Under the pieces are notes generated by a model, which worked only from the letters and a program-made list of their open reading frames with translations, did not search any database and was not told the DNA's origin. From positions 512,001-576,000 of the forward strand of contig CAWDDT010000006.1 of NCBI GenBank assembly GCA_963801165.1: DNA of 64,000 bases, given 5' to 3'. The stretch is from an uncultured bacterium (GTDB lineage: Bacteria; Actinomycetota; Acidimicrobiia; Spongiisociales; UBA5794). Positions 7,768 through 11,038 of this stretch are shown here, piece after piece. The first letter of the stretch is position 1, and every line of letters begins with the position of its first letter. Both the position numbers and the translations under genes were made by a program.

Positions 7768-8669
7768 CTATTGGTTTCCAGTCAGTTGTTTTGCTCGTTG
7801 TTGGGCATGGTAGGTGTCCTCGAATTCGGTCGGGGGGACGTCGTTGAGGTAGCTGTGGATCCGCTGGGTGTTATACCAATGGATCCAGCCCAAGGTAGCG
7901 AGTTCGACGTCTTCGATGCTGCGCCACGGGCCATGATCCGGTCCGTAGATCAGCTCGGCTTTGTAGAGACTGTTGACGGACTCGGCGAGTGCGTTGTCAT
8001 ACGAATCACCGACCGTCCCGATCGATGGCACCGCTCCGATCTCGTCAAGGCGTTCCCGTAGCGGATACTGGTGAATTGGCTGCCGGCATCGGAATGAGCA
8101 ACGAGCCCTTCAAGACGGGTGCCTCGGGCGAAACGGGCCATCTCTAAAGCGTCGAGGACCATCTGGGTTCTCATATTCGAAGCGACCCGCCACCCGACGA
8201 TGTGGCGGGAGAACGCATCGATGATGAAACACACATACCCAACACCTTGCCAGGTCGGGACATAGGTCAGGTCCGTCACCCACAGCCGGTTCGGCCGGTC
8301 GGCTGTGAAGTCCCGCTCCACCAGATCCGGGGATCTCTCAGCAGCAGGATCAGATTTGGTGGTGCGAACCCGGCGACGACGTGACACACCCTGAATATCG
8401 AGGGCTTTCATGAGACGTCCGACCTGGTCACGGCCAATCGTATGGCCGTCACGTAACGCAGCCTTCCACAGTTTGCGGACCCCATACACCGAGTAGTTCG
8501 CCTGAAACAGCGCCAACAAGACCGGCATCATCACCGCATCCCTGATCGCACGAGCCGACGGTATCCGAGACTTGTTCTCGTAATACGTTGACGGGGCCAC
8601 CTGCAACGTCGCACAGATAGGCTCGACCCCAAAGTCGTCACGATTCTCGTCAATGAACTGCACCATCAC
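7768..8669 (-). pseudogene. IS3 transposase OrfB (rve/DDE), single-base frameshift near 8055
   Basis: WVTDLTY, HSDAGSQF, SYDNALAESVN; ORFs 7950-8669 and 7768-8031 join if one G is restored in a G run (YGERLDEIG); may be a sequencing error. Confidence 0.88.
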
Positions 8670-8696
8670 CTCTGTGGGCGGTCGAGCTAATGGCAG

Positions 8697-8880
8697 CAGT
8701 GAGCCGGCCTTTTGGGGCAGGATTCATCCGGCGGCCATCGGGTCAGCACTAGGTCGAGTGGCACTTTGAGTACTTGGCGGAGATCGTGCGCCCGGTGGCT
8801 GTCGAGAGACGTGGATGGCTGGTGGGATGACGTGCCATAGAGCACTGGGCCATTAGCGAGCCGCATCGTCTCTTGCGCCA
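8697..8880 (+). ncRNA. IS110 bridge RNA (5' hairpin, target-binding loop, donor-binding loop)
   Basis: Guides GGTCGAG (8752-58), GGCGGAG (8776-82), GGTGGGATG (8821-29), GCCATTAG (8849-56) inside two stem/internal-loop modules; RNA ends approximate. Confidence 0.85.
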
Positions 8881-8903
8881 ACTTAACCGAACGGAGGAAG
8901 CCT

Positions 8904-10122
8904 ATGCGTTCAGTGTTCGTCGGTCACGATTGGGCCGAAGACCATCACGACATCCACATCGAGAACAGTGAAGGTGAGCGGCTTCATGCTTGCCGCCTCG
9001 ACGACGGGCTCGAAGGCGTCCGACGTCTGCATTCAGTACTCGCAGAACTCGCCGATGACCCGTCGCAGGTCGTGATTGCCACCGAGACCGACCGTGGGTT
9101 GTTCATCACCGCCATGATCGCCGCCGGCTATCAGGTGATCGCGATCAACCCCATGTCGACGGCCCGTTACCGACGAACGCCGGTCAACATCCGGTGCCAA
9201 GTCCGACCGAGGCGATGCGCAGACCCTCGCCGAGGTCGCACGCCTCGACAGCCACAACCACCGGCTCCTAGAACCCGACAGCGACCTTGCTGACGCGATC
9301 AAACACACCGCCAGGGCGCACCAGAACCTGATCTGGACTCGCCAACGCCAGCTCAACCAGCTCCGCTCGGTCCTACGCGAGTTTTTCCCCGCCGCGCTGG
9401 CGACCTTCCCCGAACTGGCACACAGCGACTGCCTCGCCACCCTTGCGGTCGCTCCTTCACCAGCAGCAGTCCACAGCCTGAGCACCGTCCGGATCGCAGC
9501 CGCGCTCCGCCGCGGGGGAACCAAACGCGGCGCCGATGCCAAAGCCGCGACGATCCGGCAAAACCTGCGAGCCGATCAGCTCCGAGCCCCCAAACAGCTC
9601 GAGGCAGCAATGAGCTCCCATGTCACCGCCCTTGTCGCTGTCGCCACCGAACTCTCCCAACAGATCAACCGGCTAGAAACCGAACTCACCGAACTACTCG
9701 ACCAGCACCCCCACGCCAAGATCCTCCAATCGATACCCGGGCTCGGCACCAAACTCGCCGCCCGGCTCCTCGGTGAGTTCGGAGACGCCCCCGACCGCTT
9801 CACCGACGCCCGCAGCCGCAAGAACTATGCCGGCACCTCACCCATCACCAAAGCATCAGGTCGCAGCCACATCGTCATCGCCCGTCGCATCCGCAACACC
9901 CGCCTCGCCGACGCCTGCCACCAATGGGCCTTCGCCAGCCTCTCCCACAGCCCCGGCGCCCGCACGTTCTATGACCAACGCCGAAACCGAGGAGACAGCC
10001 ACAACCGCGCACTAAGAGCCCTATCAAACCGGCTCGTCGGCATCGCTCACGGCTGCCTCACACACCAAACCCCCTACGACGAACACACCGCCTGGGGACA
10101 CCGCTACAACCTCGTCACTTGA
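8904..10122 (+). pseudogene. IS110 DEDD recombinase (about 405 aa), +1 frameshift near 9173
   Basis: GGAGG RBS; VGHDWAEDHHD, IATET, (after frameshift) SGAKSDRGDA, SIPGLG, AGTSPITKASG, ALRALSNRL. Confidence 0.9.
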
Positions 10123-10144
10123 CTTTTCTCCGGGTGGGATGTCT
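10119..10144 (+). promoter_or_regulatory. -35 half of a circle-junction promoter in the IS110 right end
   Basis: TTGACT (10119-24), 17 nt, then T-CT plus left-end AAT gives TCTAAT after circularisation. Confidence 0.8.
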
Positions 10145-10463
10145 CCGCCGCAAAGAAAGCCGAAGCCCGCTTCAAAATCTCGTTCGCTCGACGTAACTCC
10201 CGGTTCTCCTGCTCAAGCTTCTTCATCTTGACTCGCTCCGCAGAAGTGATGCCCGCAACACCCCCAGCATCAATCTCAGCTTGGGCCACCCAACGGCGCA
10301 CCGACTCAGAGCCGTAACCCAACTGGTCAGCGACCCGAACCACCGTCCCCTGCGACTCCCCAAGTTCCTCACGAAGCTGGAAAACAAGACGAACCGCCCC
10401 ATCCTTCTCCTCCTTCGTATACCGCCGTATGGTCGGCTTCCCCGGTGATAACTCTCTCGACAT
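10145..10463 (-). pseudogene. IS3 transposase OrfA (HTH), split near its C-terminus by IS110 (rest at 8666-8688)
   Basis: RRYTKEEKDGAVRLV, ESVRRWV, ENRELRRANEILKRASAFFAAE|LDRPQR*. Confidence 0.9.
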
Positions 10464-10514
10464 GGCTCTCATCCTTCCACACTCGAGAGTCTCCAAGAAT
10501 CCCAGGGCGAACCA

Positions 10515-10755
10515 CAACCCCCCACTCCAAATCCTTCGGATTGTCGCCCCTATCCGAGTGCCGATAGACATCTACCAGCCGATCCATCGACCAACACGAC
10601 GCAGCCTGATAATGCGCCACCTGGCGTCGCTGCGCTTTGAGTACCCGCACCAAATCAAACGGAGAAACATGCTCAAAATCCAACGACTCCAACACCCGAG
10701 CCAACACAGCCCCAGGCGTGACGTCCTCCAGATTCTCAGAAATAGAAACGAACAT
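10515..10755 (-). pseudogene. N-terminal fragment of a DUF222/HNH (13E12-repeat-like) protein, truncated by IS3
   Basis: MFVSISENLEDVTPGAVLARVLESLD...LVRVLKAQRRQVAHYQA resembles DUF222 N-termini; LexA box over the start; frame runs into the IS3 IR. Confidence 0.6.
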
Positions 10756-10784
10756 ACGTTCGATCATACCGGAGGCCACCGACA
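10749..10784 (-). promoter_or_regulatory. LexA (Cheo) box plus PafBC-type RecA-NDp promoter
   Basis: CGAAC-ATAC-GTTCG at 10749-10762; minus strand TGTCGG-N10-TATGAT ending 7 nt before ATG. Confidence 0.85.
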
Positions 10785-10799
10785 AGAACCAGACGATCG

Positions 10800-11038
10800 A
10801 CCCAACCGGGAAGGTCAGCGGCGGTGAGGGACGAAGGAAGCTCGTCCCACGCTGCTCCTCTAGCTCCCCACGATACGGGCACGTCCTTGCCACCCTCGGA
10901 TCGCCACGCCGGGTGAAGTAGGCGAACGTACGCATCGAACCCTTCGGGGACCACCGAGCCAACGTCTACACCGAAATCGTGAAACCGGTCGGCCACCCAC
11001 CGGGCCGGGCTCAGGTCGTTCTGCAGGTCGAAGCCCAT
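10800..11038 (-). pseudogene. Probably truncated actinobacterial hypothetical protein
   Basis: MGFDLQNDLSPARWV...VGSVVPEGFDAYVRLLHPA looks like the N-terminus of a longer protein; 3' boundary approximate. Confidence 0.4.

What the first reader, a model, noticed from the sequence alone, without database searches (positions are those of the whole stretch)
8689..8903. Readable bridge RNA in the IS110 left end, with all four guides matching this insertion
Seen in sequence: the empty target is GGTCGAG-CT-CCGCC and the circle junction (donor) is GGTGGGATGT-CT-AATGGC. Module 1 is closed by GCGGCCATCGGG (8731-42)/CCCGGTGGCTGT (8791-802) and GCAC/GTGC. It holds GGTCGAG (8752-58, identical to the left target flank) and GGCGGAG (8776-82, reverse complement of CT-CCGCC). 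Module 2 is closed by GAGAGACG (8804-11)/CGTCTCTT (8867-74) and GGCT/AGCC. It holds GGTGGGATG (8821-29, identical to right-end 10133-41) and GCCATTAG (8849-56, reverse complement of CT-AATGGC). Established knowledge: this order and orientation is the target-loop/donor-loop design of IS621-type bridge RNAs. Inference: this is a programmable RNA-guided recombinase orthologue from an actinobacterial lineage, with its specificity decoded directly from sequence.
Basis: partly seen in the sequence, partly recalled or inferred. Interest (0 to 1): 0.95.

Follow-up and report, generated by a model that had tools for sequence, protein, structure and literature searches.

The report
Bridge RNA of a broken IS110 element
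This is a real guide ("bridge") RNA gene in the left end of an IS110-family jumping gene that landed in another jumping gene, a kind of system known since 2024, and this copy's enzyme gene is broken.

Summary
Every motif lies at the stated coordinates. An uninterrupted sister IS3 copy in the same genome, and one on a metagenome contig, show the empty target GGTCGAG-CT-CCGC(C).

Window 8689-10142 is an IS110-family element. Its left end encodes a 5' hairpin and two stem-loops with internal loops, as in IS621.

Evidence from relatives:
- Across 52 distinct relatives, the stems show compensatory changes.
- The target-loop segments match each element's own flanks far better than other elements' flanks (0 of 20000 shuffles).
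- The "handshake" base after the right donor guide pairs with target position 7 in 51 of 55 cases.
- A -35/-10 promoter forms only across the circle junction.

Limits:
- The recombinase gene has a 1-base frameshift.
- The element is single-copy, with no cognate enzyme elsewhere in the genome.
- The left target guide does not pair with the CT core.
- The recombinase is only distantly related to IS621.

Bridge RNAs were already predicted for most IS110 elements, so this is a new member of a known kind.

Side finding: all 6 members of this guide class sit in the frameshift hairpin of IS3-family elements.

The parts
8680..8686 (+). Left target (LT) GGTCGAG, flank of the insertion, part of the IS3 frameshift hairpin
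   Evidence: identical to the left target guide 8752-58
8687..8688 (+). Left copy of the CT core dinucleotide
   Evidence: the two flanks overlap by exactly CT on the uninterrupted C9 paralogue
8689..10142 (+). IS110-family element (1454 bp without cores); single copy in the genome
   Evidence: ends AATGGC... and ...GGTGGGATGT are conserved in relatives
8699..8727 (+). 5' stem-loop of the bridge RNA
   Evidence: fold of the window RNA. The family helix at A1 columns 11-18/53-60 is 81.6% paired against 69.1 +/- 1.3 in shuffles. That register was fixed after the slide control.
8731..8802 (+). Target-binding module. Outer stem 8731-8742/8791-8802, inner stem GCAC 8746-49/GTGC 8786-89, internal loop, distal hairpin 8761-8773
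   Evidence: helices 1 and 2: 97.6% and 95.0% paired; 13 of 17 and 5 of 6 pairs change on both sides
8752..8758 (+). Left target guide (LTG), same sense as LT, so it would pair with the bottom strand. The next two bases, 8759-60, are TG where most relatives carry the core CT
8776..8782 (+). Right target guide (RTG) GGCGG+AG, complementary to the top strand CT-CCGCC
8783..8784 (+). Target-loop handshake dinucleotide AT. The A pairs with donor position 7 (T 10142)
   Evidence: 46 of 46 relatives Watson-Crick; concept from PMC11208158
8804..8874 (+). Donor-binding module. Basal stem 8804-8811/8867-8874 with GGCT/AGCC, internal loop, distal hairpin GTGC 8832-35/GCAC 8842-45
   Evidence: helices 3, 4 and 5: 87.6%, 75.8% and 99.7% paired
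8821..8831 (+). Left donor guide (LDG) GGTGGGATGAC, matching the right end plus first core base (10133-10143) at 10 of 11 positions
8849..8856 (+). Right donor guide (RDG) GCCATTAG, complementary to CT-AATGGC (8687-8694)
8857..8858 (+). Donor-loop handshake dinucleotide CG. The C pairs with target position 7 (G 8686)
   Evidence: 51 of 55 Watson-Crick against 24.8 +/- 3.4 in shuffles
8904..10122 (+). DEDD (RuvC-like) + Tnp recombinase gene, broken by one extra base near 9172-9174. The N-terminal frame is 8904-9173; the C-terminal frame is open from 9157 to the stop at 10120-22
10119..10124 (+). -35 box TTGACT, overlapping the stop codon. After 17 nt, T10142 + CT + AAT(8689-91) would give the -10 box TCTAAT, but only in the circle junction
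   Evidence: 56 of 57 relatives keep TTGAC[A/T/G] with a 17-18 nt spacer. No promoter was found in the integrated state. Function is inferred.
10133..10142 (+). Left donor (LD), the right end of the element, GGTGGGATGT
10143..10149 (+). Right copy of the CT core plus right target (RT) CCGCC
8592..8686 (-). 3' part of the ALIL (-1 frameshift) pseudoknot of the host IS3-family element, split by the insertion. The IS3 orfB fragments lie at 8669..7950 and 8031..7768, and orfA lies upstream of 10145 to 10571 (minus strand)
   Evidence: RF01497, 48.5 bits, gathering score 50; the reported match 8592-8705 runs 17 nt into the IS110 end; Pfam

Best explanation
Window 8689-10142 is an IS110-group insertion sequence. 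Its left end (about 8698-8880) encodes a bridge RNA of the IS621 design: a 5' hairpin, then a target-binding stem-loop, then a donor-binding stem-loop.

In the working element the cycle would run as follows. The excised circle joins right end to left end. That junction creates a sigma-70-type promoter (TTGACT, 17 nt, TCTAAT across the CT core), which transcribes the bridge RNA and the recombinase gene.

The RNA would hold the target GGTCGAG-CT-CCGCC with two guides. LTG 8752-58 pairs with the bottom strand, and RTG 8776-82 pairs with the top strand. It would hold the circle junction GGTGGGATGT-CT-AATGGC with LDG 8821-31 and RDG 8849-56. The DEDD/serine recombinase would then exchange strands at the CT core. 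The handshake bases A8783 and C8857 would pair with the incoming non-cognate strands.

The target is the first hairpin of the -1 frameshift pseudoknot of IS3-family elements, so insertion splits orfA from orfB.

Shown here: the anatomy, the stem covariation, the guide-flank and handshake covariation, the empty site, and the conserved junction promoter motif.

Inferred from the IS621 literature: transcription, protein binding, and the strand-exchange chemistry.

This particular copy is most likely a dead relic. Its recombinase gene is frameshifted and no cognate enzyme is encoded elsewhere in the genome.
For: Anatomy and empty site.

Protein:
- Pfam DEDD_Tnp_IS110 is split over the two frames, and Transposase_20 is also present.
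- NCBIfam NF033542 'IS110 family RNA-guided transposase' scores 141.3 bits against a cut-off of 140.
- PDB matches are ISCro4 and IS621.

Structure:
- RNAalifold on 52 distinct left ends predicted 28 pairs, 15 of them with compensatory changes.
- On the model-fitted alignment of 60 distinct sequences, 91.9% of cells pair, against 81.2 +/- 0.4 in shuffles and 37.7-43.3% when the partner is slid. 31 of 42 pairs change on both sides. 0 of 500 shuffles reach the observed values.
- The 5' hairpin is 81.6% paired against 69.1 +/- 1.3.

Guides:
- The 7 non-core LTG bases match the element's own left flank at 161 of 245 positions over 35 guide classes. Shuffled pairings give 74.3 +/- 7.1, and 0 of 20000 reach the observed value.
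- The 5 non-core RTG bases match at 91 of 115 over 23 classes, against 50.0 +/- 4.6, again 0 of 20000.
- The donor guides match at 144 of 176 (32 of 20000 shuffles reach this) and 85 of 120 (36 of 20000).

Single compensations: core CC with RTG/RDG GG in L027, L037 and L068, and left end AATAG with RDG CTATT in L045.

Handshake:
- The first donor-loop handshake base pairs with target position 7 in 51 of 55 rows, against 24.8 +/- 3.4 (0 of 20000).
- The first target-loop handshake base pairs with donor position 7 in 46 of 46.

Junction promoter: 56 of 57 loci have TTGAC[A/T/G] with a 17-18 nt spacer, and 51 of 57 read TCTAAT. No promoter was found in the integrated locus.

Known model: PMC11208160, PMC11208158 and PMC13626964 (passages and named sections read).
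Against: - The naked-RNA fold of this copy partly buries the guides. Mean P(unpaired) is 0.15 for LTG, 0.13 for RDG, 0.48 for RTG and 0.46 for LDG. Freeing all guides costs 18.5 kcal/mol.
- The whole left end folds only slightly better than shuffles (z = -1.91; 9 of 200 shuffles fold at least as well).
- RNAalifold pairs LDG with RDG. Those columns are invariant, so the pairing can be neither supported nor excluded.
- LTG positions 8-9 read UG, not CU. Durrant et al. found core pairing on both strands strongly preferred in IS621. LDG has A where the donor has T, just before the core.
- Donor-guide covariation is weak because the element ends are conserved.
- The inner donor-module helix is only 75.8% paired. 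The arms of the donor stem bind their own partner only about 3 kcal/mol better than foreign or shuffled arms.
- Alignment A3 is fitted to the model, which favours the model's structure.
- The recombinase is frameshifted, the element is single-copy, and the other IS110-family genes in the genome are at most about 31% identical.
- There are no expression data for this organism.
Confidence: 0.9

Rival explanations
1. The same bridge-RNA element, but this copy is still active. On this reading the apparent frameshift is an assembly error, or is bypassed during translation, so recombinase and RNA could still move the element.
For: All catalytic motifs are still encoded in the two frames, and there are no further stops in the C-terminal frame from 9157 to 10122. 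All four guides and both ends are intact.
Against: The extra base is not in a homopolymer run, and the intact relatives L002 and L003 read straight through. The element is single-copy, and an exact-except-last-base empty target on C9 is unoccupied. Other members of the clade are also decayed: L009 has frameshifts and a right-end deletion, and L132 has an in-frame stop.
Confidence: 0.08
2. The left end is only a structured 5' leader of the transposase mRNA, and the internal copies of the element ends are DNA-level binding sites for the transposase. On this reading the matches to the flanks are incidental.
For: LDG and RDG are a direct and an inverted repeat of the element ends, as sub-terminal protein-binding repeats would be. 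Their columns hardly vary. The naked-RNA fold does not leave the guides free.
Against: Protein-binding repeats cannot explain why the target-loop segments change together with the flanking host DNA (0 of 20000 shuffles). They also cannot explain why the base after RDG tracks target position 7 (51 of 55), or why the stems keep pairing through changes on both sides (31 of 42 pairs).
Confidence: 0.02
3. The four matches in this one copy are coincidence in GC-rich DNA.
For: GGTCGAG and GGCGGAG are common words here, with 42 and 30 hits on both strands of the window.
Against: The joint expectation in 215 nt is of order 1e-8. The matches fall in the registers fixed independently by the family alignment.
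Confidence: 0.005

Closest known systems
IS621 bridge RNA and recombinase (E. coli; Durrant et al. 2024 PMC11208160; Hiraizumi et al. 2024 PMC11208158, 2026 PMC13626964)
   Same: - The RNA lies in the left end, upstream of a DEDD + serine-Tnp recombinase.
- It has a 5' hairpin followed by a target loop and then a donor loop.
- LTG and LDG have the sense of the top strand, while RTG and RDG are complementary to it.
- CT cores sit at both ends.
- Handshake bases follow RTG and RDG.
- A promoter is rebuilt across the circle junction.
- The target is a palindromic repeat.
   Different: - The protein is only distantly related (E 9e-12, Tnp domain only).
- RTG is 7 nt including the core, against 4 in wild-type IS621.
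- LTG does not pair with the core (UG).
- LDG pairs with only the first core base.
- The hosts are GC-rich actinobacteria.
- The target is another insertion sequence, not a REP element.
ISCro4 / IS622 bridge recombinases used for genome rearrangement (PDB 9t56; preprint 10.1101/2025.05.14.653916, search listing only)
   Same: This is the best PDB sequence match (E 2.3e-12), with the same domain order.
   Different: The relationship is distant. Nothing is known about the activity of the present clade.
IS1111-group elements (IS4321/IS5075 in Tn21 inverted repeats; attC-targeting IS1111 members), as cited in PMC11208160; their 'seekRNA' is recalled and was not read here
   Same: They belong to the same superfamily and choose their target by RNA. 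They are precedents for IS110-family elements that home into conserved sites of other mobile elements.
   Different: IS1111-group elements carry the RNA in the right end and have long sub-terminal inverted repeats. Here the RNA is in the left end, which places the element in the IS110 group.
ALIL pseudoknot (Rfam RF01497), the -1 frameshift stimulator of IS3-family elements
   Same: The target GGCGG-TCGAGCT-CCGCC is the first hairpin of this motif. Intact copies score 83.6 bits (C9) and 93.1 bits (L132).
   Different: It is the target of the element, not part of it. The window's copy is split by the insertion and scores 48.5 bits, below the gathering score of 50.

Membership tests
IS110-group bridge-RNA element (IS621 type) | Recombinase with a RuvC-like DEDD domain and a Tnp domain carrying the catalytic serine | tested here: met
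   Pfam PF01548 and PF02371. NCBIfam NF033542 at 141.3 bits, cut-off 140. PDB matches IS621 and ISCro4. The gene is frameshifted in this copy. Individual catalytic residues were not aligned to IS621: the N-terminal fragment gave no PDB match.
IS110-group bridge-RNA element (IS621 type) | Non-coding RNA in the long left end, made of a 5' stem-loop and two stem-loops with internal loops | tested here: met
   (stem covariation; 0 of 500 shuffles reach the observed values). The covariance model R1 hits once per element, upstream of the gene, at 64 places in 70 sources, and once in the window's own genome.
IS110-group bridge-RNA element (IS621 type) | First loop: 5' side identical to the left target, 3' side complementary to the right target, both covarying with the insertion site | tested here: met
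   In the window, 7 of 7 and 7 of 7 bases match. In the family, 161 of 245 against 74.3 +/- 7.1, and 91 of 115 against 50.0 +/- 4.6, each with 0 of 20000 shuffles.
IS110-group bridge-RNA element (IS621 type) | Second loop: 5' side identical to the right end of the element, 3' side complementary to its left end | tested here: met
   In the window, 10 of 11 and 8 of 8 bases match. Family covariation is weak but present: 32 and 36 of 20000 shuffles reach the observed match. Compensations occur in L045, L027 and L068.
IS110-group bridge-RNA element (IS621 type) | CT core at both boundaries, with no other target duplication | tested here: met
   In the listing, CT is by far the commonest core at both junctions, and the exceptions include CC (L027, L037, L068) and TT (L003, L059).
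IS110-group bridge-RNA element (IS621 type) | [quoted passage not shown] | tested here: not met
   RTG and RDG end in AG, so they meet the rule. LDG carries only the C. LTG reads UG in the window, L002, L009, L124 and L132, and UU in L003. Across the family, LTG position 9 matches the core in only 55% of insertions. This is a departure from the IS621 rule, not from the design.
IS110-group bridge-RNA element (IS621 type) | Handshake guides: the bases after RTG and RDG pair with position 7 of the non-cognate DNA and not with the cognate DNA | tested here: met
   Donor-loop handshake against target: 51 of 55 Watson-Crick. Target-loop handshake against donor: 46 of 46. Against the cognate DNA: 0 of 46 Watson-Crick (donor loop) and 4 of 58 (target loop).
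IS110-group bridge-RNA element (IS621 type) | Promoter reconstituted across the right-end/left-end junction of the circle | tested here: met
   Motif only: TTGACT, 17 nt, TCTAAT in the window, conserved in 56 of 57 loci. None was found in the integrated locus. Transcription was not tested.
IS110-group bridge-RNA element (IS621 type) | The RNA is made, binds the recombinase and is required for recombination; changing the guides changes the site | not testable with these tools
   No RNA run was listed. This needs bench work with an intact orthologue.
IS1111 group | RNA in a long right end, with long sub-terminal inverted repeats | tested here: not met
   The right end is only 20 nt beyond the stop codon, and the structured RNA is in the 215-nt left end.

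The most novel reading that the evidence does not exclude
This clade of bridge-RNA elements has specialised on the frameshift-stimulating hairpin of IS3-family insertion sequences. It would be an insertion sequence that homes into, and inactivates, other insertion sequences.

Support:
- All 6 of 6 known members of the guide class (window, L002, L003, L009, L124, L132) sit at the same point of IS3 elements.
- Among five of the six (all but L003), those IS3 hosts are only 56-77% alike, while the inserted left ends are 85-92% alike.
- In the same genome, a second, unrelated IS110-family element splits the sister IS3 copy inside its conserved GDSYD|NALAE motif.

The missing core pairing in the left target guide may be an adaptation to a structured target or to one-way insertion.
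Probability: 0.55. Interest if true: 0.45.

Novelty: new member of a known kind. Interest (0 to 1): 0.3.

Why it matters
The finding shows that the IS621 rules can be read straight from sequence in a distant, GC-rich actinobacterial branch. This includes the fine handshake rule. The branch supplies natural variation that could inform guide design: a 7-nt right target guide and left target guides without core pairing. Intact relatives (L002, L003) could serve as starting points for bridge-recombinase tools in high-GC hosts.

Biologically, the target choice suggests competition between insertion sequences. The element knocks out IS3 transposase production at its frameshift site.

None of this changes the known picture of bridge recombination. 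This copy is itself defective.

Tried and rejected
- **Rfam.** No Rfam 15 family matched the left end. The only hits in 8000-10800 were ALIL and Ms_AS-4, both just under their gathering scores.
- **RNA evidence.** No RNA holder was listed for window 8600-10250.
- **PDB search with the 90-aa N-terminal fragment.** Only chance-level ClpP matches (E about 0.3), so the DEDD residues were not aligned to IS621.
- **Unconstrained RNAalifold on the donor module.** It paired LDG with RDG and missed the basal stem, because MAFFT places the gaps inconsistently there. I therefore took a structure from a constrained alifold run (guide columns forced unpaired) on 23 of the 47 sequences. I built model R1 from it and counted pairs on the refitted alignment, which leans towards that structure.
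- **Duplex energies of the donor-stem arms.** The separation was modest: own partner -16.9, foreign -13.6, shuffled -13.7 kcal/mol.
- **5' hairpin.** My first register was off by one column (32.6% paired). I corrected it after seeing the slide control, so that register is post hoc.
- **Metagenome scan for the 15-nt left junction.** Only 2 of the 80 carry the bridge RNA; the other 78 are taken as chance matches.
- **Literature.** Searches for an IS110 element targeting the IS3 frameshift site, and for actinobacterial bridge RNAs, listed nothing on the point. I judged this from titles and abstract starts only. Supplementary tables of PMC11208160, which list predicted orthologues, could not be seen and may include this clade.

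**Rows dropped.**
- Of the 80 loci, 67 had both protein fragments by my criteria.
- I then dropped loci without a recognisable left end: L016, L019, L032, L042, L046, L048 and L066.
- L036 was also dropped, because its left-end match was spurious.
- That left 60 insertions: 58 with a left flank and 53 with a right flank.

Full report
**1. The observation**

The element runs from 8689 to 10142 and is bounded by CT at 8687-88 and 10143-44.

The left flank ends in GGTCGAG, and the right flank begins with CCGCC. The four internal segments sit at the stated coordinates:
- 8752-58 equals the left flank.
- 8776-82 is complementary to CT-CCGCC.
- 8821-29 equals the right end.
- 8849-56 is complementary to CT-AATGGC.

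The empty site is not only inferred:
- A 75%-identical IS3-family copy on contig C9 is uninterrupted and reads GGGCGGTCGAG-CT-CCGCAGC. The two window flanks overlap on it by exactly CT.
- A metagenome contig (L132) holds the exact 14-mer in an intact ALIL pseudoknot.

From word counts in the window, the chance of all four words falling in 215 nt is of order 1e-8.

**2. What the element is**

The gene downstream of the structured region carries two Pfam domains:
- DEDD_Tnp_IS110. Its profile positions 1-87 lie in one frame and positions 87-155 in another.
- Transposase_20.

NCBIfam calls the family 'IS110 family RNA-guided transposase' (141.3 bits, cut-off 140). The nearest solved structures are ISCro4 and IS621, but only distantly (E 2.3e-12 and 9e-12, Tnp domain).

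Homologues read straight through the point where the window changes frame. The window has one extra base near 9172-9174.

The element is single-copy in its 4.55-Mb genome. Three other IS110-family genes exist there. Two of them (C7, C13) are at most about 31% identical to this one over part of the protein, and the third (C9) gave no tblastn match to it.

**3. Where it sits**

The host sequence is an IS3-family element on the minus strand: orfA with HTH_Tnp_1, and orfB with HTH_21 and rve.

The insertion point is the first hairpin (GGCGG / CCGCC) of the ALIL -1 frameshift pseudoknot. Rfam RF01497 scores 48.5 bits for the split copy. It scores 83.6 bits for the intact C9 copy.

**4. Relatives**

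A scan of species-representative genomes gave 80 loci encoding relatives at 50-85% protein identity. They come mostly from Acidimicrobiia, Mycobacterium, Rhodococcus and uncultured Actinomycetota.

- 67 of the 80 had both protein fragments.
- Left and right ends could be placed by the conserved AATGG... and ...GGGATGT termini.
- Multi-copy genomes confirm that similarity stops exactly outside the CT.
- 52 distinct left ends were aligned (A1).

**5. RNA structure**

RNAalifold on A1 found the outer and distal stems of the first module, with many compensatory pairs. Examples are column 81:164 (CG 34, GC 11, AU 2) and column 89:158 (AU 34, GC 17).

I built a covariance model of the two modules (R1: 156 positions, 42 pairs). 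It hit once upstream of the gene in the loci searched, giving 64 matches in 70 sources. The window scored 116.3 bits.

Counts on the refitted alignment of 60 distinct sequences:

| Measure | Observed | Control |
|---|---|---|
| Cells paired | 91.9% | 81.2 +/- 0.4 in shuffles; 37.7-43.3% when slid |
| Pairs changing on both sides | 31 of 42 | 20.8 +/- 1.7 in shuffles |
| Covariation score | 0.364 | 0.180 |
| Shuffles reaching observed values | 0 of 500 | |

This alignment is fitted to the model, which favours it. The inner helix of the donor module is the weakest, at 75.8% paired.

The 5' hairpin is also supported: 81.6% paired against 69.1 +/- 1.3. Its register was fixed.

**6. Guides against flanks**

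Registers were fixed by alignment columns. Each element's loop segments were then compared with its own flanks and with those of other guide classes.

| Segment | Own match | Shuffled | Shuffles reaching observed |
|---|---|---|---|
| LTG, 7 non-core bases (35 classes) | 161 of 245 | 74.3 +/- 7.1 | 0 of 20000 |
| RTG, 5 non-core bases (23 classes) | 91 of 115 | 50.0 +/- 4.6 | 0 of 20000 |
| LDG | 144 of 176 | 136.5 +/- 2.4 | 32 of 20000 |
| RDG | 85 of 120 | 79.3 +/- 1.6 | 36 of 20000 |

Per-position matching decays away from the core on both sides, as base pairing from the core outwards would predict.

The donor guides are conserved because the ends are conserved, so that test has little power. 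Individual compensations are clear:
- Elements with a CC core carry GG in RTG and RDG (L027, L037, L068).
- L045 has AATAG at its left end and CTATT in its RDG.

**7. Handshake rule**

Hiraizumi et al. (PMC11208158, passages read) showed two things. The two bases after RTG and after RDG pair with positions 6-7 of the non-cognate DNA after strand exchange. Position 7 covaries with them across orthologues.

Results here:
- The base after RDG pairs with target position 7 in 51 of 55 distinct rows (shuffled 24.8 +/- 3.4; 0 of 20000).
- The base after RTG pairs with donor position 7 in 46 of 46.
- The cognate pairings are avoided.

In the window, C8857 pairs with G8686, and A8783 pairs with T10142.

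**8. Promoter**

The right end carries TTGACT, overlapping the stop codon. Seventeen bases later, the last base of the element, the CT core and the first AAT of the left end would read TCTAAT. This happens only in the circle.

- 56 of 57 loci keep TTGAC[A/T/G] with a 17-18 nt spacer.
- 51 of 57 read TCTAAT.
- No sigma-70-like site was found in the integrated locus.

This matches the junction promoter described for IS621. It is a motif match, not a measurement.

**9. Points against, and departures from IS621**

- The thermodynamic fold of the naked RNA partly pairs the guides. LTG has P(unpaired) 0.15 and RDG 0.13. Freeing all guides costs 18.5 kcal/mol. The left end as a whole is barely more stable than shuffles (z = -1.91). 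These intra-loop pairings have no covariation support, and the LTG partner is not conserved.
- LTG positions 8-9 read UG instead of the core CU in the window, L002, L009, L124 and L132. L003 has UU and a TT core at its left junction. Across the family the second core position is matched in only 55% of insertions. In IS621, core pairing on both strands was strongly preferred.
- LDG has A opposite the T just before the core.

These are variations within the design, not failures of it.

**10. Target specialisation**

All 6 of 6 elements with the GGTCGAG/GGCGG guide pair lie at the same point of IS3-family elements. They are the window, L002, L003, L009, and the 2 of 80 metagenome junction hits that carry R1 (L124, L132).

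- ALIL is detected at the junction in 5 of the 6.
- Among five of them (all but L003), the left flanks are 56-77% identical while the inserted left ends are 85-92% identical. That argues for independent insertions.
- For L003, flank and element diverge alike, so it adds no independent event.
- I found no paper describing this target (listings only).

**11. Comparison and verdict**

This is a bridge RNA of the IS110 group. All but one of the defining sequence features I could test were met, and only the rule that the core pairs with all four guides was not. The functional features are untestable here.

The kind has been known since 2024, when thousands of orthologues were predicted. This copy is probably dead. 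It is a new member of a known kind, of modest interest. The IS3-hairpin homing is the most novel thread.

Noticed in passing
G000 contig C9:432273-433560 (locus L202:2273-3560, minus strand): The uninterrupted-ALIL sister IS3 copy is itself split by a different IS110-family element (360-aa intact ORF with DEDD_Tnp_IS110 + Transposase_20). That element sits inside the conserved GDSYD|NALAE motif of the IS3 integrase domain. Both IS3 copies in this genome are therefore hit by IS110-family elements at conserved sites. Model R1 does not match this second element.
   Followed up: partly
window 9737-9813 (minus strand); also L002:3058-3139 and L009:3058-3139: Near-threshold Rfam match to the Actinobacteria sRNA Ms_AS-4 (RF02464: 46.7, 47.4 and 43.9 bits; gathering score 50). 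It lies antisense to the Tnp-domain coding region. That Rfam family may simply be an antisense piece of IS110-family transposase genes.
   Followed up: no
L010:3440-3600: The right end of one element copy (…GTGGGATGT-CT) is joined directly to AGGCCTAGACC…, which is the RTG-onward part of a second copy's target loop. That second copy lacks its left end, 5' hairpin and LTG. The RTG region is palindromic (TCTAGGCCTAGA), so the element's own bridge-RNA gene contains its right target. This looks like a self-targeted recombination.
   Followed up: partly
window 7768-8669 (minus strand): The host IS3 orfB is itself split into two overlapping frames: 8669..7950 with HTH_21 + rve, and 8031..7768 with rve_3/rve_2. 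The IS3 element is therefore decayed beyond the IS110 insertion.
   Followed up: partly
L003:340-350 and L059 left junction: Some relatives have TT at the left junction and CT at the right junction. In L003 the LTG also reads TT. This fits top-strand cleavage 3' of the core, which leaves the target's core at the left junction and the donor's core at the right.
   Followed up: no
window 9157-10122 protein: NCBIfam also gives a sub-threshold match to NF052498, 'TIGR-Tas system RNA-guided endonuclease' (43.7 bits, cut-off 100), over residues 111-283.
   Followed up: no
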